Below, piece by piece: positions 1,640 to 41,909 of a DNA stretch of 47,862 nucleotides; positions within the stretch are counted from its first letter, which is position 1; each line of letters opens with the position of its first letter. Source of the stretch: a phage. The position numbers were made by a program, and so were the translations under genes. The notes under the pieces were generated by a model. The model had not been told where the DNA came from. It did no database searches and saw only the letters and a program-made list of their open reading frames with translations. The stretch lies in the sequence record OZ346152.1; one strand, 5' to 3'.

Positions 1640-2932
1640 ATGAGCGAAAAAACAAGGCTAGTTAAGGCCGATGGATACAACGAGATTTTCAAGGGTAGCA
1701 AGGGCAATGGGCGTGTGGAGTTGCCTTTCTTTATGCAAGGGTTCGAATACACCACGCACGCTGATTTTTACATTCGCGACGGCCTAGCAAAACGAATCAT
1801 CGACGTTGTTCCAGAAGAAATGGTGACGCCTGGATTTAATATTGACGGCGTGGAAGATGAGGAAAGTTTTAGATCTTTGTGGGATGAGAAGCGACTAAAC
1901 GATAAAATCATTGATGCGCTTTGCTGGTCGCGTCTTTTTGGTGGCGCGGCAATCGTGGCAATCGTTCAGGATGGCAGGTCGTTAAAGTCGCCTGTAGCGC
2001 CTGGTGCAACCCTTGAAGATGTTCGCGTTTACGATCGCTTTCAGGTTCGCGTAGAAAAGCGCGAAACTAATCCACGCAAGGTACGATATGGTGAGCCATT
2101 AATTTACACCATTGCGCCTGGTGCCGACTTGCCAGAATACCAGGTTCACTATTCGCGAATCTGTATTATCGACGGTGAGCGTCTACCAAATCAGCGACGT
2201 CAATCAAATGATGGGTGGGGTGAGTCGGTCCTGAATAAGCGACTTGTTGAGGCCATTTGTGATTATAACTACTGCGAAAACTTAGCAACTCAATTGTTGC
2301 GACGTAAGCAACAGGCAGTATGGAAAGCTAAAGGACTTGCCGATCTTTGTGATGATGATGATGGTGTTAACGCCGCGCGTTTGCGCCTTGCTCAAGTTGA
2401 TGATGAGGGTGGCGTAGGCCGTGCGATCGGTATTGATGCGGAAGATGAGGAATATGATGTTTTAAATTCTGATATTTCCGGCGTAGATTCATTCCTGGAA
2501 AAGAAGATGGATCGCATTGTATCTCTTTCCGGCATCCATGAAATCATCCTCAAAAACAAGAACGTTGGCGGTGTTAGTGCGAGCCAAAACACGGCGCTTG
2601 AAACCTTCTACAAGCTGATCGATCGAAAGAGAAAGGAGGAATACAAACCAATCCTTGAATTTCTGATCCCGTTCCTGATTCAAGAGGAAGAATGGAGTAT
2701 TCAGTTTGCGCCGTTAAGCGTTCCAAGTGAAAAGGACCAGGCCGAGATCTTGAACAAGAACATTGATTCTTTGAGCAAGGCTATTGACGGTCAATTCATG
2801 GACACAGAGGAGGCGCGCGACACATTGCGAGCCATTGCGCCTAACGTTAAACTAAAAGACGGCAATGACATTAAATTACCTGAGCAGGACGTAGAGCCGG
2901 AGCCAGGAACAACCGAGGGTGACGATCAATGA
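1640..2932 (+). CDS. portal protein
   Basis: About 430 aa, gene order after terL; ATG at 1640 with GGAG 8 nt upstream (track start 1634 is TTG). Confidence 0.7.
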   Translation: MSEKTRLVKADGYNEIFKGSKGNGRVELPFFMQGFEYTTHADFYIRDGLAKRIIDVVPEEMVTPGFNIDGVEDEESFRSLWDEKRLNDKIIDALCWSRLFGGAAIVAIVQDGRSLKSPVAPGATLEDVRVYDRFQVRVEKRETNPRKVRYGEPLIYTIAPGADLPEYQVHYSRICIIDGERLPNQRRQSNDGWGESVLNKRLVEAICDYNYCENLATQLLRRKQQAVWKAKGLADLCDDDDGVNAARLRLAQVDDEGGVGRAIGIDAEDEEYDVLNSDISGVDSFLEKKMDRIVSLSGIHEIILKNKNVGGVSASQNTALETFYKLIDRKRKEEYKPILEFLIPFLIQEEEWSIQFAPLSVPSEKDQAEILNKNIDSLSKAIDGQFMDTEEARDTLRAIAPNVKLKDGNDIKLPEQDVEPEPGTTEGDDQ

Positions 2933-3684
2933 TAGTGAAAGGCGTCGTTAAACAATGGCGCTTTCCTGAAGCAAGCGAGCGGCAATTGCGCCGCTCAATT
3001 CAGGAGGCGGTAAGGGATCTTGTTGTGCTGATGCGCAGCAAAACAAGGGAAATGAAATTTGATGCGGATACCGAAGAAATCAACGCCGCAGAGGATGAGA
3101 TTAGCAGCCTCGCGTTAAAGCTAATAGCTGGCATCGCCGCATCGCTTCCGGCTGTCGGCCTTGCTGTGTATAAATTCAACTCAAAGCAATTTATTAACGT
3201 AGCGAAATCAACGGGAGGTAAGTCAAATTCCGCCGTTATCATCCTTATGGCTATTGGGGCCAATGCGAATGAGAGTTGGTATAGGACGCTATACGGTCAA
3301 TGGCATGACATGACGATCGCATCTCTTCAAAAACTATTTGGAAACATCGTGTCTGACTGGTCAACCAATATCAGATCGGCAAACTTTCGCGGAATGAGAG
3401 ATAGTCAGGTCAATGAATTGGCTGGTAAGAGATTTGCGGTGTATAGCTCTTGGGGTAAGACCAGGGCGGAAAACATCATAGGCGCTTGGAATAGTAGACT
3501 CATGCGCCAGCGTCTTTATGATGCAAAAGTAACTCATTATTTTTGGCATGGTATGCTTGATGACAGAGAGCGATTGCAGCATGTACAATGGGAAGGTAAG
3601 CGCATTGCGCTAGATTCTGAACATGATTTTCCTGGTGAGCCTTTCGGTTGTCGTTGTTGGGCTATACCAGATTGGAATAGTTAA
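2929..3684 (+). CDS. head morphogenesis protein (putative, Mu F / SPP1 gp7-like)
   Basis: 251 aa directly after portal; ATGA overlap with portal stop. Confidence 0.45.
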   Translation: MIVKGVVKQWRFPEASERQLRRSIQEAVRDLVVLMRSKTREMKFDADTEEINAAEDEISSLALKLIAGIAASLPAVGLAVYKFNSKQFINVAKSTGGKSNSAVIILMAIGANANESWYRTLYGQWHDMTIASLQKLFGNIVSDWSTNIRSANFRGMRDSQVNELAGKRFAVYSSWGKTRAENIIGAWNSRLMRQRLYDAKVTHYFWHGMLDDRERLQHVQWEGKRIALDSEHDFPGEPFGCRCWAIPDWNS

Positions 3685-4822: not shown

Positions 4823-5332
4823 ATGGCTAAAATTGGAGCAAGTTATTTTGACACTATGGCGCGCGCTCTTCCTGGTCAGGTATCCGATACTTCGGCATAT
4901 AACATCGACGGCGCTTGTGTTCTTGACAAGGATGATGGAATCGCTATCCCCGTTGGCGTGGCGGTAAAATTAAAAGGCGTAGATTCTATGGGTAACAAAC
5001 TTATCGACGCCATCACTTCAAGCGGTGACGTTCCTTATGGCGTGGCTATCCGATCGCACTTCCAGACAACCGGAGAAAACGGTCGTATGGTTTATGAAGT
5101 TGGTGGAGGCATCAACGTCATGACAGAGGGTAGAGTTTGGATGGTCGTAGATGATTCCGATAAGGAAAAGACTCCACAATATCGCGAGCCTGTGAAAATT
5201 GATGATTCCACAGGATTTGTTAAAAGTTCTGGAGCAATTACAACGAACTGGATCTTTACTGGCGATAAAACAACTTACGGTTCTGGTCAGGATGTGATTA
5301 CATTGTTTGAAGTTCAGGTCTTCCCAAGCTAA
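4823..5332 (+). CDS. virion structural protein, paralog A (possible head decoration)
   Basis: 169 aa; strong AAGGAG RBS; shares NIDG..V, RS, VW and WIFTGD segments with the 5383 ORF. Confidence 0.35.
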   Translation: MAKIGASYFDTMARALPGQVSDTSAYNIDGACVLDKDDGIAIPVGVAVKLKGVDSMGNKLIDAITSSGDVPYGVAIRSHFQTTGENGRMVYEVGGGINVMTEGRVWMVVDDSDKEKTPQYREPVKIDDSTGFVKSSGAITTNWIFTGDKTTYGSGQDVITLFEVQVFPS

Positions 5333-23003: not shown

Positions 23004-23456
23004 ATGCACGTTATTACAGGTGAGATCCGAAAAGAGCCAAAAGTAAAGCAAATGCCTAACGGCAGCACGCTATATGTTGTTGAGCTTTCCGAACGATATA
23101 AAGACCGTGAAGGCAATTGGCAGTATACAAACTATGTATTTTTCTTTAACGCGAAAACAGACGGCCTGAATGGTTGGTATGCTGAGGCGTTCCAGGTAGG
23201 CAAGGTTATTTCTGTTTCCTGCGATACCTTGCGAGTTGAAACGCGAGAATACAACGGAAAGATTTACAGCACCGTGCAGCCTGGCGGATTTGCAAACCTG
23301 CTATTTAGCCAGCGCGGAGAAAGCCAGCAACAATATCAGCAGCGAACACAAGGAGGCTGGGGGCAACCACAGCAGCAACAGCAACAAAACACTCAACAGC
23401 AGCCACAGCAAAGCAATCAGCCTCCGATTGACTTTGACGACGATATACCATTCTGA
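23004..23456 (+). CDS. ssb: single-stranded DNA-binding protein
   Basis: OB-fold-sized N-terminal part, Gln-rich linker, acidic tail DFDDDIPF; ATG at 23004 with GGAGA RBS (track start 22953 is TTG). Confidence 0.8.
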   Translation: MHVITGEIRKEPKVKQMPNGSTLYVVELSERYKDREGNWQYTNYVFFFNAKTDGLNGWYAEAFQVGKVISVSCDTLRVETREYNGKIYSTVQPGGFANLLFSQRGESQQQYQQRTQGGWGQPQQQQQQNTQQQPQQSNQPPIDFDDDIPF

Positions 23457-34779: not shown

Positions 34780-36356
34780 CCCAGCAGTATTGGATTGACA
34801 AAAATAACACCATTAATCACACAAACATAATTTCTTTCTTCCAGCATTGGCAGCAAGTGCCCTTCTATCCTCTTCATTACGCCAGCCTGACCAACGAAAG
34901 GTTTTACCTTTCTCGCCGATTCGTACAGGGCGCGAATATTCAGGATACCTTTGTTAGCCTTGCCGTGCCTCGTGATCAATTCAATCAATTTACCCATTTC
35001 AGCATCATCACCAGCATAACCAGAAGCATTGGCGGCGCTAATGTATGTTTTGCTCAATTCCTGAAACATGATCAACGCCTCTTGCATTGTTTCCACGTCG
35101 ATCTCTTTCGACTTCTGCGGGTATCCGGCAGGATTAAACCAGTTACGGATAACATGCAGGACGGAAGCAAGCCTGATCACCTGTTTATCCATTTTACCCA
35201 GCGCACCGCGTAACATTGTATGAGAATACTTTCCGCCGTCTGCAAGATGCGGTTCCATATCCTGGCGAGCAATGTTGAGCACTCGCATAGCTGAGCGGCT
35301 TATTTTCAGCGATATATTTGATTCGCTCATGATGTTATGCACCAATTGATAATATTGGGCTTTCAATTCAGAATCCACCGCCTCATAGGTAGAATCACCA
35401 TTTTCATCAATGAATGAGCGACGGCCTAAGAATGATTCTTCGCGGACCAACAAAAAGCGCTCACTCACACCGATACCGCGCGATCCAGCGTCCATGATAC
35501 CGCTTATCGTTTCATCCTGTGCTATAACGCTCATGCATCCAAGCGCGCGAAAACTCATATTATTGTCAGCATTAGCACGGGCAATTGATACGTGACCATT
35601 ATCCCACGCCTTAAGCACTAGCTCACTGTTAGTCTTCCTTTCGCTATTTGCATAGGTCAAGCCTAACAGGCTATTAATACTTGTTGCTTCGTCAGATATT
35701 ACGGCAAAGTTACCTTGCTTGTTGTTGATTTTCGCCAAGCCTTCTGGAGTTGTATCTGAAACAGGAAAAGTTATATCACACATTTTTTCCAGCTTTTCCT
35801 CCAGATCCTCTTTTTCCTGGTATAGAGATTCCATATCAGCGCCGGATCTTTCGCTTTTCATCTCCTTTGCAAGACCTGCCAGCTTTGCCTGTATTTTCTT
35901 TCTTTCCTTGCGGCGTTGCTCGTTGATCTTCTCAACTTCCGCAATCATCGGAGCAATAGCCATACTGTTGATCGCAGATTTACCAGTTGACGGCGGCTGG
36001 CTTGTAACGACGTAAAGCGCAGTCGGCTGATCGGTTCCGTGATAGTCAACCGTAAAGCGTCCAAGCATAGCGGCAGAAATGCAGCCGATAAAGTGCATGT
36101 AAGCCGATGATTCAGGGAATTGAACGGATCGCGCAATGCTGCGTGATAACTTGCCTACAACATCAATATCATTACCAAGAGAAATAACGGGGTAGCGATC
36201 GTGACCGCTATTCACATCCTTTACGTCGCCCCAAAAGCTGGACGACTGGCGATAGCCGTTAGCCTGAATTGATACGCGAACTGGCGAAAGGTTCTGGCTT
36301 TCAGCCATAGCGATTATTTGCTGTGGAGTTAATTTGTTCGTTTCTAATGAAAACAT
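34776..36356 (-). CDS. P-loop NTPase of unknown role (possible replication/recombination ATPase)
   Basis: 526 aa; Walker A-like PPSTGKS and Walker B-like FAVISDEATS; AAGGAG RBS. Confidence 0.4.
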   Translation of the reverse strand: MFSLETNKLTPQQIIAMAESQNLSPVRVSIQANGYRQSSSFWGDVKDVNSGHDRYPVISLGNDIDVVGKLSRSIARSVQFPESSAYMHFIGCISAAMLGRFTVDYHGTDQPTALYVVTSQPPSTGKSAINSMAIAPMIAEVEKINEQRRKERKKIQAKLAGLAKEMKSERSGADMESLYQEKEDLEEKLEKMCDITFPVSDTTPEGLAKINNKQGNFAVISDEATSINSLLGLTYANSERKTNSELVLKAWDNGHVSIARANADNNMSFRALGCMSVIAQDETISGIMDAGSRGIGVSERFLLVREESFLGRRSFIDENGDSTYEAVDSELKAQYYQLVHNIMSESNISLKISRSAMRVLNIARQDMEPHLADGGKYSHTMLRGALGKMDKQVIRLASVLHVIRNWFNPAGYPQKSKEIDVETMQEALIMFQELSKTYISAANASGYAGDDAEMGKLIELITRHGKANKGILNIRALYESARKVKPFVGQAGVMKRIEGHLLPMLEERNYVCVINGVIFVNPILLG

Positions 36357-36384
36357 TCGTTAGCTTCTCCTTTGTGGGCCGTAA

Positions 36385-36428
36385 ATTTTAACGGCCCAAT
36401 ACTACCCCGTTTTGTCAAAAAGTGCTAT
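36385..36428 (-). promoter_or_regulatory. box-type promoter unit (box variant with GACAAAAC, N18, TAAAAT)
   Basis: Minus strand ATAGCACTTTTTGACAAAAC, 18 nt, TAAAAT; GGGCCGT..ACGGCCC dyad spans the -10. Confidence 0.5.
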
Positions 36429-36646
36429 TTGATCCGCTCTATTGCAACCAGAAGTCGATCAGGCTGGCGGTCGCTGTAGCATTCTCCTGTAATCCCATCC
36501 TTAAACGTAAAGTAAAGCGCCTTATGATATGAAAAACCAATCAGCCAACCTACCGCCGTTTTTTTGATGGGCCTGACTATATCGCCAGGCTTGAAAGTCT
36601 TTGTGGTAGAATGCGTTACTTTGTAACGGTTTTCACTGTTTATCAC
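36425..36646 (-). CDS. hypothetical protein (GTG start)
   Basis: 73 aa; GTG start preceded by GAGGG and overlapping the upstream stop; TAG stop inside the box. Confidence 0.35.
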   Translation of the reverse strand: MINSENRYKVTHSTTKTFKPGDIVRPIKKTAVGWLIGFSYHKALYFTFKDGITGECYSDRQPDRLLVAIERIK

Positions 36647-37029
36647 AGATATTTTCCCTCAAAAAGATAACAGCCGCCAGCAGAGAATCCGACCTCTTCA
36701 CGGTACAGGTTCCAGCGGTCGCCGCACTCATCAAAAACATAACCCGCAACGCTTCCAAGCGGTCGCCCTTTCTCGATCTGGTATCGCTTGCCCTGCTTAA
36801 AGTGCTTTTTGCACGGCATGTTATGATCTACAAACGTGCAAAGAACGGTTTTTGTGTTAATGGCGCGGTAATCATCTCGGTTTGCTGGAAGCCAGCGGCT
36901 ACCCTTAACAAGCGTCTTAACTTGGAACTCTTCCACCTCGATCACATCATTACTTCCTGCAATCTTCTGATAAACCGTTTTAAAACGGCCTTTCATCAAT
37001 ACGTTGGTTTCATTACAGATAACATTCAT
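36643..37029 (-). CDS. hypothetical protein
   Basis: 128 aa; AAGGAG RBS; several Cys/His residues. Confidence 0.4.
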   Translation of the reverse strand: MNVICNETNVLMKGRFKTVYQKIAGSNDVIEVEEFQVKTLVKGSRWLPANRDDYRAINTKTVLCTFVDHNMPCKKHFKQGKRYQIEKGRPLGSVAGYVFDECGDRWNLYREEVGFSAGGCYLFEGKYL

Positions 37030-37058
37030 GATCAGATCTCCTTTGTTTGTTCGATGTG

Positions 37059-37102
37059 ATTATGCCAGGTTTTTACACCTGGCTTTTAACAAAAAGTGCT
37101 AT
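37059..37102 (-). promoter_or_regulatory. box-type promoter unit (box, palindromic N18 CCAGGTGTAAAAACCTGG, CATAAT)
   Basis: Perfect box core on the minus strand; 18-nt hairpin spacer; CATAAT. Confidence 0.55.
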
Positions 37103-37809
37103 TTTGAGTTTGACTCAAAGACGGCGCGAGCAAAGCCGCGCGGAGTGAGGGAGCGGATCATCTTTGTGCGCGATGACTTGCCGCCAGTTTTGGCCCATCC
37201 TGGATTATCTTTGTCTTCCTCTTTCGGCAGGATTAAAGCGCGTGGAGGAATAACAAAGCCGTTGCCAGTCCAGAGGCACGTTTTCTTAAAGTAGCGATCC
37301 CGCGCCGGAATAATATCAGGGAAGTCGGGATGTTTATCATCTTCCGGCAGATAGCCAGCGTAATCGCACGGATGGAACGTATAATCAGGCTTTCGCCATA
37401 ACGTTGACAACTTGCCAACCGGATTTTCGATCATGTAAGGAACACCGAAATAATCAGCTATATCAGCCGCGATCCTGCAAGTGTCGGCGGCCTCATCCTG
37501 GAACGATGGATTCTCAAGGCGTTTTTTGGCCCAATGGCGAGATCCGCTATTTGCAAGGTCGGTGCATGGTGGAAATGCCATAATAAAGTCAGGAATGCCC
37601 CATTCCTCCCAGCGCGCGCGGTGGTAAAATCTTTCATCAATCCAGACGTTAACGTATTCGATATTCTCATGCTGTATGCGCACTGACTGGTAATCACCGT
37701 GATCGCCGCCGTCAGCATTAAAGCAAATGCACTTATAGCCATTATCAGCCCAATCTTTAACGGCTTTACCAGATCCATCAAATAGGGAGAATATTAAACC
37801 TTTATACAT
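37099..37809 (-). CDS. DNA C5-cytosine methyltransferase-like protein (small Dcm-type)
   Basis: 236 aa from ATG at 37809 with GAGG RBS; motif I-like FSLFDGSG, motif IV-like PPCTDLANSG, motif VI-like IENPVG; TAG stop inside the box. Confidence 0.55.
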   Translation of the reverse strand: MYKGLIFSLFDGSGKAVKDWADNGYKCICFNADGGDHGDYQSVRIQHENIEYVNVWIDERFYHRARWEEWGIPDFIMAFPPCTDLANSGSRHWAKKRLENPSFQDEAADTCRIAADIADYFGVPYMIENPVGKLSTLWRKPDYTFHPCDYAGYLPEDDKHPDFPDIIPARDRYFKKTCLWTGNGFVIPPRALILPKEEDKDNPGWAKTGGKSSRTKMIRSLTPRGFARAVFESNSK

Positions 37810-37819
37810 CGTAATTACC

Positions 37820-38044
37820 TCAAAACGGAAAACAGCGCGCACAACCAGGATCGAAATCGCATCCACAATCATTAACAATCATGGTGGGATCTGCAAATAT
37901 TGCGCTTGATTCAAGATCCATATCCATATCACCTAAAGCCTCATCAAGAGTCTTAATTTTATATGCCACTTCAAGCGCTGCCTCTTTATTTAGTCCGGCA
38001 TCTTCTGCCATTTGAAGGCGTTCAAAAAATCCGTCTTGACTCAT
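37820..38044 (-). CDS. small acidic protein with C-terminal Cys cluster
   Basis: 74 aa, Asp/Glu-rich, CGCDFDPGCARC near the C-terminus; AAGGAG RBS inside the upstream peptide ORF. Confidence 0.4.
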   Translation of the reverse strand: MSQDGFFERLQMAEDAGLNKEAALEVAYKIKTLDEALGDMDMDLESSAIFADPTMIVNDCGCDFDPGCARCFPF

Positions 38045-38157
38045 CGCATAATCTCCTTAATAACAACCAAGATAATAGCCAGGCCAGCAGCAGTAACCAA
38101 AAAGCCAGCCGCGCCAATAATCGAATAAAAAAAGAAATCAATAGCTTTATCCATCAT
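38041..38157 (-). CDS. small hydrophobic peptide (38 aa, single predicted TMD)
   Basis: MMDKAIDFFFYSIIGAAGFLVTAAGLAIILVVIKEIMR; GAGGTG RBS; stop overlaps the next ATG; below the track cutoff. Confidence 0.3.
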   Translation of the reverse strand: MMDKAIDFFFYSIIGAAGFLVTAAGLAIILVVIKEIMR

Positions 38158-38199
38158 TTTTCACCTCATTTAAAAGGCGGCAAAACGCCGCCAGATTAA

Positions 38200-38427
38200 T
38201 TAAAGAGCGCGCCAACTTTGAATATAGAAAGCGTTTTCTTCCAGTAATTCTTTTACCTGATCTTTATTGTATTTGCGCACCTTGCCGCCTGGATGGATGC
38301 CAATAAGATAGCCGCCTTTGCCCTCGGTGATAGTGATTTGGCTAATTCCGCAAGACTTATCAAGTTTTACAGCCACGCGGTGATGAGCGTCAATAGTTGC
38401 CATAATGTTTAAAACTTTTGCTTTCAT
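38200..38427 (-). CDS. hypothetical protein
   Basis: 75 aa; GAGGA RBS. Confidence 0.4.
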   Translation of the reverse strand: MKAKVLNIMATIDAHHRVAVKLDKSCGISQITITEGKGGYLIGIHPGGKVRKYNKDQVKELLEENAFYIQSWRAL

Positions 38428-38535
38428 TTAAATATCCTCAATTGAAATATGAATGACGTGGCGCTCTTTTCCCGTCGCCGCCGTAATGGTCATTTGCAAC
38501 CGCCACCATCCAGGTATTTTTGAAAATAAATAGCA

Positions 38536-38748
38536 TCATTTCTTATTTTTCATCTTAAATTTATGGCCTGGAACACCAGCGCCAATATAGCCATCGTTGT
38601 ATTCCATTAAATAAAGGTGAAGACCATTGTCTGAAATTACATGGGGATCTTCTTTGAGATTTCCCATTAGTGGATATTCTTTTCCGCGCGTAAATCTCCA
38701 AGTTGAGTTATAAGTTTCTACGCATTTAAGTTTTAATTGCTTTGCCAT
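38536..38748 (-). CDS. hypothetical protein
   Basis: 70 aa; TAATG-coupled to the upstream gene. Confidence 0.4.
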   Translation of the reverse strand: MAKQLKLKCVETYNSTWRFTRGKEYPLMGNLKEDPHVISDNGLHLYLMEYNDGYIGAGVPGHKFKMKNKK

Positions 38749-38945
38749 TAAATGATCTCCATTACGGTTTCAAAGCCAGCCAACTTGAAATGATATTCGT
38801 TAACCTTAACAACCTTCCATTCCAAGCCTGAATGGTAAGCAACCATATCATCAAGATCGATGGTAATTTCAGTGCCTTTCTTGAATAAGCCTTTTTCGTG
38901 AGACTTGTCGCGAATAATTACTTTAACATCAACTTGATTTTCCAT
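38748..38945 (-). CDS. hypothetical protein
   Basis: 65 aa from ATG at 38945 with GAGGA RBS (track start 38996 would lie inside the promoter unit). Confidence 0.4.
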   Translation of the reverse strand: MENQVDVKVIIRDKSHEKGLFKKGTEITIDLDDMVAYHSGLEWKVVKVNEYHFKLAGFETVMEII

Positions 38946-38976
38946 CTTTAAATCCTCGTTTGTTGTCGATGGGTGT

Positions 38977-39020
38977 AATATACCATTCAGGAGCACATCG
39001 TTTTTAACAAAAAGTGCTAT
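38977..39020 (-). promoter_or_regulatory. box-type promoter unit (box, N18, TATATT)
   Basis: Minus strand ATAGCACTTTTTGTTAAAAA, 18 nt, TATATT, then ..CATCGACAAC..GAGGATTT, ATG. Confidence 0.55.
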
Positions 39021-39307
39021 TCAACAACTTTTCCAGTTAAAGAGATAAGTTGCCTTGTAATCTTGTGGCGTCGATACTTACGCGCAACAACCGGAAGGTT
39101 TTCACCGCTTTGATGACCAAAACAGATCGGCAATTCACCTTCAAGCGAACGGAAGCCGCCAAATTCAAGATCCCGCACTGGCTTCGCGCGCCAGGCTTCA
39201 ATAAATCCGCGTTCGTCACGAGTGATATAGCGGTATATGTTCGGGAGGGGCAATTGTATCCCCTCAAAATCCACGGTATCGGTATAGCTATAAAACTTAG
39301 AACTCAT
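39017..39307 (-). CDS. hypothetical protein
   Basis: 96 aa from the ATG overlapping the upstream small-ORF stop; TAG stop inside the box. Confidence 0.4.
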   Translation of the reverse strand: MSSKFYSYTDTVDFEGIQLPLPNIYRYITRDERGFIEAWRAKPVRDLEFGGFRSLEGELPICFGHQSGENLPVVARKYRRHKITRQLISLTGKVVE

Positions 39308-39449
39308 AGTCAACAACTCCAAACTCGTTAACGATTTGCGCCTTGTAGAAGCCGCCATTTTTAGCCAGGTTGTAACAAGCGGCTACGGTTTCAAATTCGC
39401 GCGCTTCCGGCTGGCTGTTTTCGTGTTCCCAGGTAATCAGAGTAACCAT
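39297..39449 (-). CDS. hypothetical small protein (50 aa, below the track cutoff)
   Basis: Hand-translated MVTLITWEHENSQPEAREFETVAACYNLAKNGGFYKAQIVNEFGVVDYEF; GAGGA RBS 8 nt upstream. Confidence 0.3.
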   Translation of the reverse strand: MVTLITWEHENSQPEAREFETVAACYNLAKNGGFYKAQIVNEFGVVDYEF

Positions 39450-39482
39450 TTTCAAATCCTCACATTCGTTGTCGATGCGTGT

Positions 39483-39526
39483 AATGTACAGGAATGCGAG
39501 GATTGAGTTTTAACAAAAAGTGCTAT
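39483..39526 (-). promoter_or_regulatory. box-type promoter unit (box, N18, TACATT)
   Basis: Perfect consensus box on the minus strand; downstream leader GTACATTACACGCATCGACAACGAA resembles those at 38977 and 40787. Confidence 0.55.
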
Positions 39527-39790
39527 TTAGTCCAGAAATTCGATTTCACGCTCGCCAGTTAACGGATCTACAAGCCAGAATCCGAGAGGTTCGCCATAAA
39601 CACCGCCATAGAATCCAAGCGCCGCCAGATCTTCACCTTTAACGAATACCAGGTTCCCGCTACGGCTTACGTGAGACACGTTAACGATAACCGGAAATGT
39701 GCGATCCTTAAATGCGGGCCGCAGGGCGTAACATCCGTTATTAAGCAAACGTGCTTTGCGCTTAACTGGAATAGGTGCATTAATTTTCAT
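39527..39790 (-). CDS. hypothetical protein
   Basis: 87 aa; AAGGAG RBS; TAA stop merges into the box. Confidence 0.4.
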   Translation of the reverse strand: MKINAPIPVKRKARLLNNGCYALRPAFKDRTFPVIVNVSHVSRSGNLVFVKGEDLAALGFYGGVYGEPLGFWLVDPLTGEREIEFLD

Positions 39791-40016
39791 GGTTATTACT
39801 CCTTATCGTAAAGATTTAAAGACGTATAGTTTATTGCGGTAACTATATATCCGCATTGTTATTTCTCGCAATGCAATATATTCCTTCCTGTTTTCCGGCA
39901 TCCTGGCGAGCAATAACAGGCAGTATTTATAAGCGCGGTCAAGATTCCTTTCCGTGCCCCTGCAATATCCCTTGTTGCGCCTGGAGCGGTACAGCCATAA
40001 CAATTTCTTGAACATT

Positions 40017-40226
40017 TCAGATACGCCCATACAGATCGCAAACCTCGTTGATAAAACAGCGTTGAGACTCTTTATTGTCACGCTCAAAAATTGCGCGGCA
40101 TTCAAACTTAAGATTATGCACGATGACAACAACCATATTTTCAGGCATTGAGCGGTTATAGCGTCGCGCGTCAGTGATTAAAACATCCATACCCATCTCA
40201 TGTGCTTTCTTGATCACATCCAACAT
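40017..40226 (-). CDS. hypothetical protein
   Basis: 69 aa from ATG at 40226 with AGGAGA RBS (track start 40250 is TTG). Confidence 0.35.
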   Translation of the reverse strand: MLDVIKKAHEMGMDVLITDARRYNRSMPENMVVVIVHNLKFECRAIFERDNKESQRCFINEVCDLYGRI

Positions 40227-40480
40227 TTTTTCTTCTCCTGCAATAAGCAAACATCATTGATAAAATCAGCACGGCCCTTAATGTTGCTGATGTGGAACGT
40301 CTTTTCAGCGTACAGGCCATCACCTTCAATCACGATCATTACGCGAGTCGGTTTATTCACGGGCGCACATGAAAAGAGTGGGCGCACCGGAAGAAATTTA
40401 GTAGCCACATCCAGGTTAGCCCTGGCGGCCCTGCAAAATGCCTCCGCCAGATCCAAATCATTTTCGGTAATCACCGCCAT
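40214..40480 (-). CDS. hypothetical protein
   Basis: 88 aa; TAATG-coupled to the upstream gene. Confidence 0.35.
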   Translation of the reverse strand: MAVITENDLDLAEAFCRAARANLDVATKFLPVRPLFSCAPVNKPTRVMIVIEGDGLYAEKTFHISNIKGRADFINDVCLLQEKKKCWM

Positions 40481-40752
40481 TACTTCTTGATCTCCTCACT
40501 GATAAATTTCAGCACCTGACGCAAGAAAACTTCGTTGTTGATAGTCGCTGGCAATTCTTCCTTCACTTCTTGCGGCAGATAGATATTGCCGTGCCAGGTC
40601 AAGCAATCGTAGTTGATACGATAAGAGCAAAGCCACTCACAATCGTTATCTGCTTCCCAAATACAGAGTTGCAGAACATCGCCAAAATCTTCAACAGTCA
40701 GATCCAGACCGTGACGCTTAGCGAAGTTGAAAGTGGTTTTGCTGATGTTCAT
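40480..40752 (-). CDS. hypothetical protein (first gene of the leftward early block)
   Basis: 90 aa; AGGAGA RBS; several Cys/Trp residues. Confidence 0.4.
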   Translation of the reverse strand: MNISKTTFNFAKRHGLDLTVEDFGDVLQLCIWEADNDCEWLCSYRINYDCLTWHGNIYLPQEVKEELPATINNEVFLRQVLKFISEEIKK

Positions 40753-40786
40753 TGCTATCTCCTGAGCGGTTCGTTTTGATGTGTGT

Positions 40787-40830
40787 AATGTACCCGATCA
40801 GACGGCCTGAGTTTTAACAAAAAGTGCTAT
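40787..40830 (-). promoter_or_regulatory. box-type promoter unit (perfect box, N18, TACATT) for the leftward early block
   Basis: Minus strand ATAGCACTTTTTGTTAAAAC, TCAGGCCGTCTGATCGGG, TACATT, 34 nt before the ATG at 40752. Confidence 0.55.
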
Positions 40831-40860
40831 TTGACGGTTAGCACCAGGATTGTGATCGAA

Positions 40861-40949
40861 ATAATCAAAAGTAATCATTCGTAATCAAATCACGTCAAAA
40901 TGATGATTTCCTTTGCAAATTTGATGAGAAAAGTAATCACGTTTAATCA
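40861..40949. repeat. iteron-like array: five copies of (A/G/T)TAATCA with 10-bp phasing
   Basis: Copies starting at 40861, 40871, 40881, 40933 and 40943 in the divergent control region. Confidence 0.45.
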
Positions 40950-41139
40950 TTGGTTGCAGGGGAGATAGTGAAACCTTCCCCTCTTGCCTCACTTTTCCGC
41001 CTGGCTGTCAGTGGTTGTTGTCTTTTGTTCACCCCTGTTACCGATTTCAGGCGGCGTGTTTCCGCGCGGTTTTCCGGTGTAGCGAAAACGGAAAAAACAA
41101 AAAAAATCCTATATAATACATTGAAAATAAAGATTATTT

Positions 41140-41320
41140 ATTTATATATATCTATAATGTTTTCTTTTTGTTCTCACTGTTACAGTGCTTTTTGTTGGTT
41201 ATGGTGTGGTTGTGTGTGGGTATATATGGATAGTTGCGCGCGCTGCGGATTGCATATGTATATATACTTTTTCCGGCGGATTGCGTTAACAGCGTGAACA
41301 GAAAAATAACAGCCCTGAAA
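41140..41320. repeat. AT-rich intergenic element B, paralogous to 20870-21050
   Basis: Same ordered blocks as element A; an estimated 65-70% identity by eye. Confidence 0.6.
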
Positions 41321-41385
41321 TCAACAACTTGCGCATGATTTTGTAGTTTTTCGATATTGGTAACGTTTTGAATACAACAAAAACA

Positions 41386-41413
41386 TTGACACGCACCAAA
41401 TAGCTTTTATAAT
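41386..41413 (+). promoter_or_regulatory. sigma70-type promoter (TTGACA, 16 nt, TATAAT)
   Basis: Consensus -35 at 41386-41391 and consensus -10 at 41408-41413; about 30 nt upstream of the 41445 ATG. Confidence 0.6.
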
Positions 41414-41444
41414 GCGCCAACAGTCAACAACTGGAGGAAAGGAA

Positions 41445-41909
41445 ATGGAACAGAAGACCACTAAGGACTATTGCGATTGGCTTCGCGAGCTTGGTCGCCG
41501 CCTGGCTAGTGGCGATATTGAAGAGTATAAAATGTCACTAATTGACCTGGCCGGAATGTTAAGCGGTGATGACTGCTACAAGATCACGCGCAGTTCATCC
41601 TACAGCCGGACCATTATCAACCGCGTTCCAGAAGTAAGGGCCGCAGGTCGGGTAAGTATCAAGGTCGAGGAAACGGAAGATGATAAATTTTACGTTTTCC
41701 GCATGGTCCGAGAATCGAAAAGGAAAATCATCACGCCCGAAGAATTGCCAGCCATCAAGGCAAGGGCGATCAAAAAGTTTGCCGATCGCTTACTGGCAGC
41801 AATCCCGAACATCGTTGACCTGGAAGGGGATAAACTGGCTGGAGCTTGTGAGGGCGTAAGCCGCTACCAGGATATGATCCGCGAAATCATCAAAGAGGAG
41901 GAGCAATAA
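41445..41909 (+). CDS. hypothetical protein, first gene of the rightward early operon
   Basis: 154 aa from ATG at 41445 with GGAGG RBS (track start 41412 lies inside the promoter -10). Confidence 0.45.
   Translation: MEQKTTKDYCDWLRELGRRLASGDIEEYKMSLIDLAGMLSGDDCYKITRSSSYSRTIINRVPEVRAAGRVSIKVEETEDDKFYVFRMVRESKRKIITPEELPAIKARAIKKFADRLLAAIPNIVDLEGDKLAGACEGVSRYQDMIREIIKEEEQ

What the first reader, a model, noticed from the sequence alone, without database searches (positions are those of the whole stretch)
37820..38157. Translationally coupled pair: a 38-aa hydrophobic peptide and a small acidic Cys-cluster protein
An unannotated 38-aa ORF (38041..38157, minus strand, GAGGTG RBS) encodes a single predicted transmembrane helix and ends in ATGA overlap with a 74-aa acidic protein (37820..38044) whose C-terminus has CGCDFDPGCARC. 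The SD of the acidic protein lies inside the peptide ORF. Small acidic proteins in early phage regions are frequent DNA mimics or host-factor inhibitors; the coupled membrane peptide is an unusual partner. This is a candidate host-takeover or anti-defence pair, not a demonstrated one.
Basis: inference. Interest (0 to 1): 0.4.

Follow-up and report, generated by a model that had tools for sequence, protein, structure and literature searches.

The report
T1-family acidic protein with SSB-like tail
Both small genes look real: a membrane peptide found in only some T1-like phages sits in front of a small acidic protein found in nearly all of them, whose C-terminus resembles the docking tail of the bacterial DNA-binding protein SSB, suggesting an untested way of tapping the host's DNA-repair and replication network.

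Summary
A 38-aa single-helix ORF (38041..38157, minus strand) has its own ribosome-binding site. It overlaps by ATGA a 74-aa acidic protein (37820..38044) that carries a CxC-x5-CxxC cluster. The window is a Warwickvirus-like T1-family phage (Drexlerviridae).

Comparison with relatives changes the picture.
- **The 74-aa protein** belongs to a family present in 450 GenBank phage records, including T1 itself (ST6). It has no Pfam, NCBIfam, PADLOC or PDB match.
- **The peptide** is accessory. It occurs in three unalignable host-genus-specific forms (E. coli-group, Klebsiella, Cronobacter phages), and each overlaps the start of the acidic gene.
- **The cysteine cluster** is optional.

The family shares a three-helix N-domain, an invariant ALGDMDMDxES motif, an acidic disordered linker and an exact C-terminus of hydrophobic-Pro-Phe/Trp (163 of 167 members). 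Cys-less members end KFDDGIPF or DDDDYIPW, close to the SSB tip DFDDDIPF that the phage's own SSB also carries.

My best reading, by inference only, is a decoy or adaptor that displays an SSB-tail-like docking peptide. The window's own tail (ARCFPF) is the least SSB-like in the family. An anti-defence role remains untested.

The parts
38200..38427 (-). Upstream 75-aa gene (phrog_4344, unknown function). It is the upstream neighbour of the acidic-protein gene in nearly every Drexlerviridae locus examined.
38176..38192 (-). GC-rich hairpin GGCGGC-GTTTT-GCCGCC followed by TTTT. It looks like a weak terminator or attenuator and sits between the 75-aa gene and the peptide's ribosome-binding site.
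   Evidence: Terminator-like site. Predicted stem in the RNA fold. Relatives have hairpins at the same place with different, complementary stems: GGGAGG/CCTCCC, GGCGGG/CCCGCC, GGGCGG/CCGCCC. The hairpin is absent where the two genes abut (L030-L036).
38162..38167 (-). Shine-Dalgarno-like GAGGTG of the peptide ORF
   Evidence: Sequence; the same motif is present in L003 and L004.
38041..38157 (-). 38-aa single-pass hydrophobic peptide (type A). G15, G18 and G25 are conserved, and the basic residues lie at the C-terminal end.
   Evidence: ORF. Full-length tblastn matches in 109 phage records. Only in-frame indels occur, including a 12-nt duplication in L116. Variable sites by codon position are 17/12/20. 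dN/dS is about 0.3-0.55, which is weak and barely below the shifted-frame controls.
38053..38058 (-). AAGGAG Shine-Dalgarno sequence of the 74-aa gene, inside the peptide ORF
   Evidence: Sequence; conserved as AAGGAG or AAGGGG in type A relatives.
37820..38044 (-). 74-aa acidic protein (phrog_9323). Residues about 4-38 form a three-helix N-domain. Residues 36-46 carry ALGDMDMDLES. Residues 47-58 are an acidic, low-confidence linker. Residues 60-71 form the CxC-x5-CxxC knuckle (nt 37832-37867). Residues 72-74 are FPF-COOH (nt 37823-37831).
   Evidence: ORF. PHROG hit E 8e-37. 97 close and 30 distant clusters. Alignments A1-A3. AF2 model. Tail statistics.
37099..37809 (-). C5-cytosine DNA methyltransferase (phrog_757; FDGSG, FPPC and ENP motifs). 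Its GAGG ribosome-binding site (37818-37821) overlaps the stop codon of the 74-aa gene.
   Evidence: PHROG hit E 2e-84. Annotated as Dcm-like in BASEL phages. Follows the acidic gene in loci L003-L041 apart from the degraded L039 but is absent in T1-group phages.

Best explanation
The region holds two real genes of the early/replication operon of a T1-family phage.

**The 74-aa product.** It belongs to a phage-only, uncharacterised family that is nearly universal in Drexlerviridae (T1 ST6 is a member). It is built from four parts:
- a small three-helix domain;
- an invariant ALGDMDMDxES segment;
- an acidic flexible linker, with or without a four-cysteine (probably zinc) knuckle;
- an exact C-terminal hydrophobic-Pro-Phe/Trp tip.

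**Proposed mechanism.** I propose that the tip works like the C-terminal tip of bacterial SSB (...DFDDDIPF-COOH). The terminal aromatic side chain and the free carboxylate would dock into the pockets that SSB-interacting proteins use. Candidates are ExoI, RecQ, RecG, PriA, the chi subunit and DnaG, or the phage's own recombination and replication proteins. The protein would then either compete with SSB as a decoy or inhibitor, or bridge such a partner to whatever the helical domain binds, as an adaptor.

**The 38-aa product.** It is an accessory single-pass inner-membrane peptide whose sequence tracks host genus. It is translated just ahead of the acidic protein, and its overlap probably helps set that protein's translation. 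Its own target is unknown.

**Shown versus inferred.** Shown: gene reality, family architecture, motif conservation and the resemblance to the SSB tip. Inferred: docking to SSB-partner pockets, zinc binding, membrane insertion and true translational coupling.
For: Conservation of the tip:
- 163 of 167 distinct small family members end in hydrophobic-Pro-Phe/Trp, a few with one extra residue, although tail length and sequence vary greatly.
- P73 is the only near-invariant position in the C-terminal half.

Resemblance to the SSB tip:
- Cys-less members have tails with a median of 12 acidic and 0 basic residues.
- They end KFDDGIPF, DYDDFIPW, DDDDYIPW, or EDVDDYIPW in T1. The phage's own SSB ends IDFDDDIPF. 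114 of 120 Drexlerviridae SSB clusters end [MI]DFD[DSE]DIPF.
- In the window only two credible genes end in Pro-Phe/Trp: the SSB and this one.
- The literature defines SSB-tip sites as a hydrophobic pocket for the terminal Phe, a basic lip for the alpha-carboxylate and a basic ridge for the Asp residues (PMC10164576; PMC5872125).

Structure and context:
- AF2 gives helices 6-15, 20-27 and 33-37, a low-confidence linker, then the knuckle.
- In most members the cysteines are either all four present or all absent (139 with the Cys4 pattern, 17 with none; about a dozen carry other cysteine counts).
- The gene lies in the operon that contains the helicase.
- The family is absent from plasmids, and a single motif scan of bacterial genomes found nothing.

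The peptide:
- Three unalignable types occur in E. coli-group, Klebsiella and Cronobacter phages. Each is 36-40 aa with one hydrophobic helix, and each overlaps the start of the acidic gene.
Against: - No binding or structural test was possible, and no complex prediction was available.
- The window's own tail (DFDPGCARCFPF) has Phe instead of Ile at -3. It has Cys, Arg and Ala where SSB has Asp, so it lacks the acidic run next to the tip.
- The T1 group ends in Trp, which was not seen in any of the 120 SSB clusters.
- The resemblance rests on three to seven residues.
- The N-domain has no known fold relative, so what it binds is unknown.
- Larger homologues in roughly 158-kb phages share the domain but lack the tip.
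- In Shigella phage 2019SD1 (L039) the gene is frameshifted, so it may be dispensable or simply mis-sequenced.
- For the peptide, dN/dS (0.3-0.55) is hardly lower than in the shifted frames, and the alternative frame is also hydrophobic because the strand is T-rich.
- The predicted RNA structure that masks the downstream SD is not significant (z = -1.16).
Confidence: 0.4

Rival explanations
1. The C-terminal tip is a docking peptide for a phage protein only. Candidates are the 75-aa phrog_4344 neighbour, the helicase or primase, or the Erf-like annealing protein. On this reading the 74-aa protein is an internal assembly or regulatory subunit of the phage replication-recombination machinery and does not engage host SSB partners.
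For: Synteny with the 75-aa gene holds in nearly all loci, and the gene lies in the operon that contains the helicase. Phage single-strand annealing proteins are reported to depend on SSB C-terminal tails (abstract of PMC13490951), so phage proteins with SSB-tip pockets are plausible.
Against: Synteny in a family with conserved gene order says little about interaction. No co-variation or complex model was obtainable. The fold of the 75-aa protein gave no functional clue.
Confidence: 0.2
2. The acidic protein is a DNA mimic or host-factor inhibitor acting as anti-restriction or anti-defence, and the membrane peptide assists it.
For: The protein has 16 acidic against 5 basic residues and a pI of about 4. 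It lies in an early region beside a methyltransferase that itself counters restriction. The 128-aa gene two positions downstream is the SECphi27 trigger of Mokosh type I, so this neighbourhood does interact with defence systems.
Against: There is no similarity to Ocr, ArdA or any known anti-defence or defence family. Most of the charge lies in a linker that varies in length and is predicted to be disordered, rather than on a rigid DNA-like surface. The gene is near-universal in the family rather than patchy, whereas anti-defence genes are usually patchy.
Confidence: 0.15
3. The 74-aa protein is an accessory or regulatory subunit of the adjacent C5-cytosine methyltransferase, with the Cys knuckle contacting the enzyme or DNA.
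For: The methyltransferase follows the gene in the IMG/VR loci L003-L041 apart from the degraded L039, usually 9-11 bases after the stop, and its ribosome-binding site overlaps that stop. The enzyme is short (236 aa) for a C5 methyltransferase.
Against: T1-group phages keep the acidic gene but have no methyltransferase next to it. Some phages insert another gene between the two (L038, L040, L041). Cys-less members also occur next to a methyltransferase (L088). A net charge of about -11 argues against DNA binding.
Confidence: 0.1
4. The 38-aa ORF matters only as a translated leader that loads ribosomes onto the 74-aa gene. Its hydrophobic product is a by-product of a T-rich sequence and has no function of its own.
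For: dN/dS is hardly distinguishable from the shifted frames. The +1 frame is also hydrophobic. Most relatives do without it and place an SD directly after the hairpin.
Against: Three unrelated sequences at the same site all encode a single helix of 36-40 aa. Glycines 15, 18 and 25 and the K-E pair are conserved across type A, while neighbouring residues change conservatively. The second codon position is the least variable, at 12 against 17 and 20 sites. The 74-aa gene has its own strong AAGGAG, so it should not need a leader.
Confidence: 0.1

Closest known systems
C-terminal tip of bacterial and phage SSB (SSB-Ct, ...DFDDDIPF-COOH)
   Same: Both have an exact C-terminal hydrophobic-Pro-aromatic end, preceded in many family members by an Asp/Glu run and carried on a flexible acidic linker. 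The closest tails (KFDDGIPF, DVDDYIPW) match six or seven of the last eight SSB residues in identity or class. The phage's own SSB carries the canonical tip.
   Different: The protein is not an SSB. It has no OB fold; it has a three-helix domain. The window's tail reads ARCFPF, with no acidic residues at -4 to -6. The T1 group ends in Trp. Many members place a four-cysteine knuckle directly before the tip. Binding to SSB partners is untested.
Acidic C-terminal tails of phage T7 gp2.5 and gp4, ending in Phe (own knowledge, not tested here)
   Same: An acidic flexible tail with an essential terminal aromatic residue, used as a docking element in phage replication.
   Different: Those tails belong to an SSB and a helicase-primase and bind the phage polymerase. 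Here the tail sits on a small stand-alone protein in a phage with no annotated DNA polymerase.
Small acidic DNA-mimic inhibitors (Ocr, ArdA, T7 gp5.9, Ugi)
   Same: Small, strongly acidic, early phage proteins.
   Different: No sequence or fold similarity was found. The charge here is concentrated in a variable, probably disordered linker.
Small single-pass hydrophobic proteins of phages and bacteria (for example type I toxins and small membrane-protein regulators; own knowledge)
   Same: 36-40 aa, one transmembrane helix, small-residue motifs and a few terminal charges.
   Different: No homology to any described family (no PHROG, Pfam or NCBIfam hit). It overlaps a soluble acidic protein gene rather than being paired with an antisense RNA. 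No toxicity data exist.

Membership tests
SSB-Ct-like C-terminal docking motif | The motif lies at the extreme C-terminus, so that the alpha-carboxylate is free. | tested here: met
   The stop codon follows the final Phe in the window. 163 of 167 distinct members end in the motif, a few with one extra W or L.
SSB-Ct-like C-terminal docking motif | Terminal aromatic residue (Phe) preceded by Pro and a hydrophobic residue (I-P-F) | tested here: met
   The window ends F-P-F. Relatives end IPF, LPF, VPF or IPW. Trp and Phe-at-minus-3 variants were not seen in 120 true SSB clusters.
SSB-Ct-like C-terminal docking motif | Run of Asp/Glu immediately before the tip (D-D-D at -4 to -6) | tested here: not met
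   The window has C-R-A at -4 to -6, and its nearest acidic residues are D63 and D65. The feature is met in Cys-less relatives, for example DDDDYIPW and KFDDGIPF, and partly in the x[DE]CIPF forms.
SSB-Ct-like C-terminal docking motif | Binds the hydrophobic pocket, basic lip and basic ridge of SSB-interacting proteins | not testable with these tools
   No complex prediction or binding assay was available. The criteria are taken from PMC10164576.
SSB (OB-fold single-stranded DNA-binding protein) | OB-fold ssDNA-binding domain | tested here: not met
   The AF2 model is helical. There is no Pfam SSB hit. The true SSB of this phage is a separate gene at about 23004-23456.
Zinc knuckle or ribbon | Four Cys ligands in a CxC...CxxC arrangement, conserved together | tested here: met
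   C60, C62, C68 and C71 are invariant in 28 close relatives. 139 members have all four and 17 have none; about a dozen carry other cysteine counts.
Zinc knuckle or ribbon | Metal binding | not testable with these tools
   This needs ICP-MS or a colorimetric zinc assay.
Known anti-defence or defence protein families | Sequence or profile similarity to a described member | tested here: not met
   No PADLOC, Pfam, NCBIfam or PDB hit. PHROGs 9323, 9085 and 4823 are 'unknown function'.
Translationally coupled gene pair | The upstream stop overlaps or abuts the downstream start, and the downstream SD lies inside the upstream ORF | tested here: met
   ATGA at 38044-38041 and AAGGAG at 38058-38053. 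The same layout appears in types B (ATGA) and C (TAATG).
Translationally coupled gene pair | Downstream translation depends on upstream translation | tested here: inconclusive
   The minimum-free-energy fold pairs the SD region with the start of the peptide ORF, but the z-score is only -1.16. This needs reporter assays.

The most novel reading that the evidence does not exclude
Drexlerviridae, including the classic phage T1, encode a dedicated non-SSB protein that displays a mimic of the SSB C-terminal tip. The phage would use it to capture or block the host's SSB-interacting genome-maintenance enzymes, as a soluble decoy or adaptor for the SSB interactome. In some lineages the tip is stiffened by a zinc knuckle, and the protein is co-expressed with a membrane peptide whose sequence tracks host genus. 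I found no report of a non-SSB protein using this motif in the searchable literature.
Probability: 0.3. Interest if true: 0.75.

Novelty: new variant of a known kind. Interest (0 to 1): 0.5.

Why it matters
The SSB tip is the hub through which more than a dozen bacterial replication, repair and recombination enzymes are recruited, and it is a proposed antibiotic target. A phage protein that copies only the tip would be a natural inhibitor or re-router of that hub. It would give an entry point into how T1-like phages handle host nucleases and restart factors; the annotated relative atuna has no DNA polymerase gene. It would also assign a function to a gene present in hundreds of sequenced coliphages and Klebsiella phages used in therapy collections. 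The accessory peptide adds a case of three different small membrane proteins placed at one genomic site in three host genera.

Tried and rejected
- **Family libraries.** Pfam, NCBIfam and PADLOC scans of the peptide, the 74-aa and 75-aa proteins and T1 ST6 gave nothing. PHROGs gave only unknown-function families.
- **Solved structures.** A PDB sequence profile search gave only chance hits with E > 0.2.
- **Homologues in roughly 158-kb phages.** All their neighbours are of unknown function.
- **Bacterial genomes.** A back-translated ALGDMDMD pattern gave 86 loci, none a true homologue by HMM.
- **Plasmids.** No match.
- **Rfam over 36000-41500.** One sub-threshold chance hit.
- **dN/dS on the peptide.** It did not separate the reading frame from the shifted frames.
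- **Methyltransferase-partner idea.** Rejected as the main explanation because T1-group phages keep the gene without the enzyme.
- **Knock-out study.** A phage gene knock-out paper turned out to concern an unrelated Queuovirinae phage.

Full report
**What the window is.** The 2-kb region around the finding is 94-96% identical to Warwickvirus phages (Drexlerviridae, Tempevirinae) such as JLBYU26, MikeNSara and atuna. The 74-aa product is identical to a protein of Escherichia phage tonnikala. The genes lie on the minus strand in a long operon that runs from a divergent control region near 40.8-41.4 kb through many small ORFs to a C5 methyltransferase and a helicase.

**Checking the observation.** Every detail holds.
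- The peptide ORF is 38157..38041. GAGGTG lies four bases upstream of its ATG.
- Its stop shares ATGA with the start of the 74-aa gene (38044..37820).
- AAGGAG lies inside the peptide ORF, eight bases before that start.
- The stop of the 74-aa gene overlaps the GAGG of the methyltransferase, whose ATG is at 37809.
- A GC-rich hairpin followed by TTTT (38192..38176) sits just upstream of the peptide's ribosome-binding site.
- Among 130 ATG-ORFs of 30-60 aa in all six frames of the window, this is the only one that combines a transmembrane-grade hydrophobic stretch with an SD-like motif.
- The ORF is annotated as a hypothetical protein in several relatives, so it is not new to annotation.

**The peptide in relatives.** I fetched 39 and then 70 related loci from IMG/VR and six more from GenBank.
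- The upstream 75-aa gene (phrog_4344) and the acidic gene are neighbours in nearly every locus. Between them, only some phages carry a small hydrophobic ORF.
- Type A, the window's type, occurs in Warwickvirus and Hanrivervirus. It gives full-length tblastn matches in 109 records down to 48% identity.
- Type B (MMNGVEKVIEILVAVFIFLGCLLVGGMVFMVFDEIWRTLL) occurs in Klebsiella phages.
- Type C (MKTWRKIASAIAIIAIAAYVLVPGFVFYFLVIETLRSCK) occurs in Cronobacter phages.
- The three types cannot be aligned convincingly. All are 36-40 aa with one hydrophobic helix, all have an SD and an ATG, and all end overlapping the start of the acidic gene (ATGA or TAATG).
- Within type A, length changes are in frame. 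One case is a 12-nt duplication.
- Glycines 15, 18 and 25 and the C-terminal K-E are kept. The second codon position is the least variable (12 sites against 17 and 20), as expected if hydrophobicity is selected.
- Pairwise dN/dS is 0.3-0.55, barely below the shifted-frame controls. The coding case therefore rests on comparative anatomy, not on substitution rates.
- Roughly 118 of 450 phage records with the acidic gene have a peptide. It is an accessory gene whose sequence tracks host genus, not an obligatory partner.

**The acidic protein family.**
- tblastn finds the gene in 450 GenBank phage records from Escherichia, Klebsiella, Shigella, Salmonella, Citrobacter, Enterobacter and Cronobacter phages.
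- A full HMM scan of 1.8 billion representative proteins finds only 30 clusters.
- There is no match in Pfam, NCBIfam, PADLOC, the PDB or plasmids. One back-translated motif scan of 185,579 bacterial genomes also found nothing.
- T1 itself has a 69-aa member, ST6, annotated as hypothetical.
- The alignment of divergent members shows an N-terminal region with invariant G17, V26, A36, L37, G38 and E45 (the AGLN...VAY...L..ALGDMDMD.ES core). A linker of very variable length and sequence follows, then a near-invariant proline two residues from the end.

**The C-terminal tip.**
- Of 167 distinct small members, 163 end in hydrophobic-Pro-Phe/Trp. The exceptions are truncated, frameshifted or single-residue variants.
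- The four cysteines are mostly all present (139 members) or all absent (17); about a dozen members carry other counts. This pattern fits a structural metal site.
- The Cys-less members have a median of 12 acidic and 0 basic residues after the core. They end KFDDGIPF, DYDDFIPW, GEDYIPW, DDDDYIPW and, in T1, EDVDDYIPW.
- This is close to the C-terminal tip of E. coli SSB, DFDDDIPF. The tip is the docking peptide for SSB-interacting proteins. Its terminal Phe enters a hydrophobic pocket, its carboxylate sits on a basic lip and its aspartates lie on a basic ridge (PMC10164576; PMC5872125).
- The phage's own SSB, about 15 kb away in the window, ends PPIDFDDDIPF. 114 of 120 Drexlerviridae SSB clusters end [MI]DFD[DSE]DIPF.
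- In the window only the SSB and this gene, among credible genes, end in Pro-Phe/Trp.

**Interpretation.** I therefore read the family as a small stand-alone module that presents an SSB-tip-like peptide on a flexible acidic arm. The helical domain presumably binds something else or oligomerises.

**Limits of that reading.**
- It rests on a short motif.
- The window's own protein is the least canonical member. It ends ARCFPF, with no acidic residue at -4 to -6, although DFD lies just before the knuckle.
- T1-type tails end in Trp, which no true SSB in my sample does.
- I could not run complex prediction or any binding test.
- Four full-text searches found no report of a non-SSB protein using this motif. 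That speaks to novelty, not to truth.
- In Shigella phage 2019SD1 the gene carries frameshifts, so it may be dispensable in the laboratory.

**Rivals.**
- A methyltransferase accessory role is unlikely to be the general function. T1-group phages keep the gene with no methyltransferase beside it, and other phages insert a gene between the two.
- DNA mimicry or anti-restriction remains possible but has no specific support. There is no similarity to known mimics, and the charge lies in a variable linker.
- A purely phage-internal docking role is a serious alternative that partly overlaps my explanation. Candidate partners are the 75-aa neighbour and the annealing or replication proteins.
- The neighbour's confident model (pLDDT 90) has only weak, uninformative fold matches.
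- The peptide could be only a translated leader. The recurrence of a single helix in three unrelated sequences argues against that.

**Verdict.** However, the peptide is optional, the cysteines are optional, and anti-defence is untested. The added value is a concrete, testable hypothesis for a gene present in most T1-like phages.

Noticed in passing
window 36643..37029 (-): This 128-aa ORF (phrog_2684) lies two genes downstream of the acidic gene. It begins with the same sequence (MNVICNETNVLMKGR...) as the 'protein of unknown function (128aa)' of phage SECphi27. That protein triggers Mokosh type I abortive infection (bioRxiv 10.1101/2022.08.27.505566). SECphi27 is a close relative of this window (H37).
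   Followed up: partly
window 38176..38192 (-) and the same position in L003-L029: A GC-rich hairpin between the 75-aa gene and the next gene is kept in many relatives, with stems that differ by complementary changes (GGCGGC/GCCGCC, GGGAGG/CCTCCC, GGCGGG/CCCGCC). It is often preceded by CCTGATTGGTT. It is likely a terminator or attenuator, or an RNA-stability element. It is absent where the genes abut.
   Followed up: partly
window about 23004..23456 (+): The phage's own SSB ends PPIDFDDDIPF, the same tip as E. coli SSB. This tip is nearly universal among Drexlerviridae SSBs.
   Followed up: yes
GenBank MG0656xx records (for example L116 = MG065675.1): About 20 records labelled 'UNVERIFIED: Campylobacter phage' are Tempevirinae genomes 85-88% identical to this coliphage region. 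They are probably mislabelled or contaminant coliphages.
   Followed up: no
window 37809 versus annotations in L001/L002 (4410..5183; 2910..3683): Several GenBank records start the methyltransferase 63 bases further upstream than the ATG, inside the 74-aa gene. The ATG at 37809, eight bases after GAGG, is the better-supported start and is the one used in atuna and grams.
   Followed up: partly
L080-L085 (about 4995..5200) and L081 (3718..3867): Other small hydrophobic ORFs occur in this neighbourhood in relatives. One is a 67-aa ORF after the methyltransferase. Another is a second 49-aa ORF upstream of the type C peptide in Cronobacter phages. This operon seems to be a frequent site for small membrane-protein genes.
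   Followed up: no
L101-L112 (phages of about 158 kb): Proteins of about 170 aa (phrog_4823) contain the same AGL[ND]...ALGDMDMD core and an acidic stretch, but have different N- and C-terminal regions and no Pro-Phe end. Metagenomic proteins P0114 and P0125 fuse the core to a CPAC...CPAC zinc ribbon. The core is therefore a mobile domain.
   Followed up: partly
L039 (Shigella phage 2019SD1, contig of 53145 bp): The acidic gene is interrupted by frameshifts while the upstream peptide ORF is intact. This is either a natural pseudogene or sequencing error.
   Followed up: no
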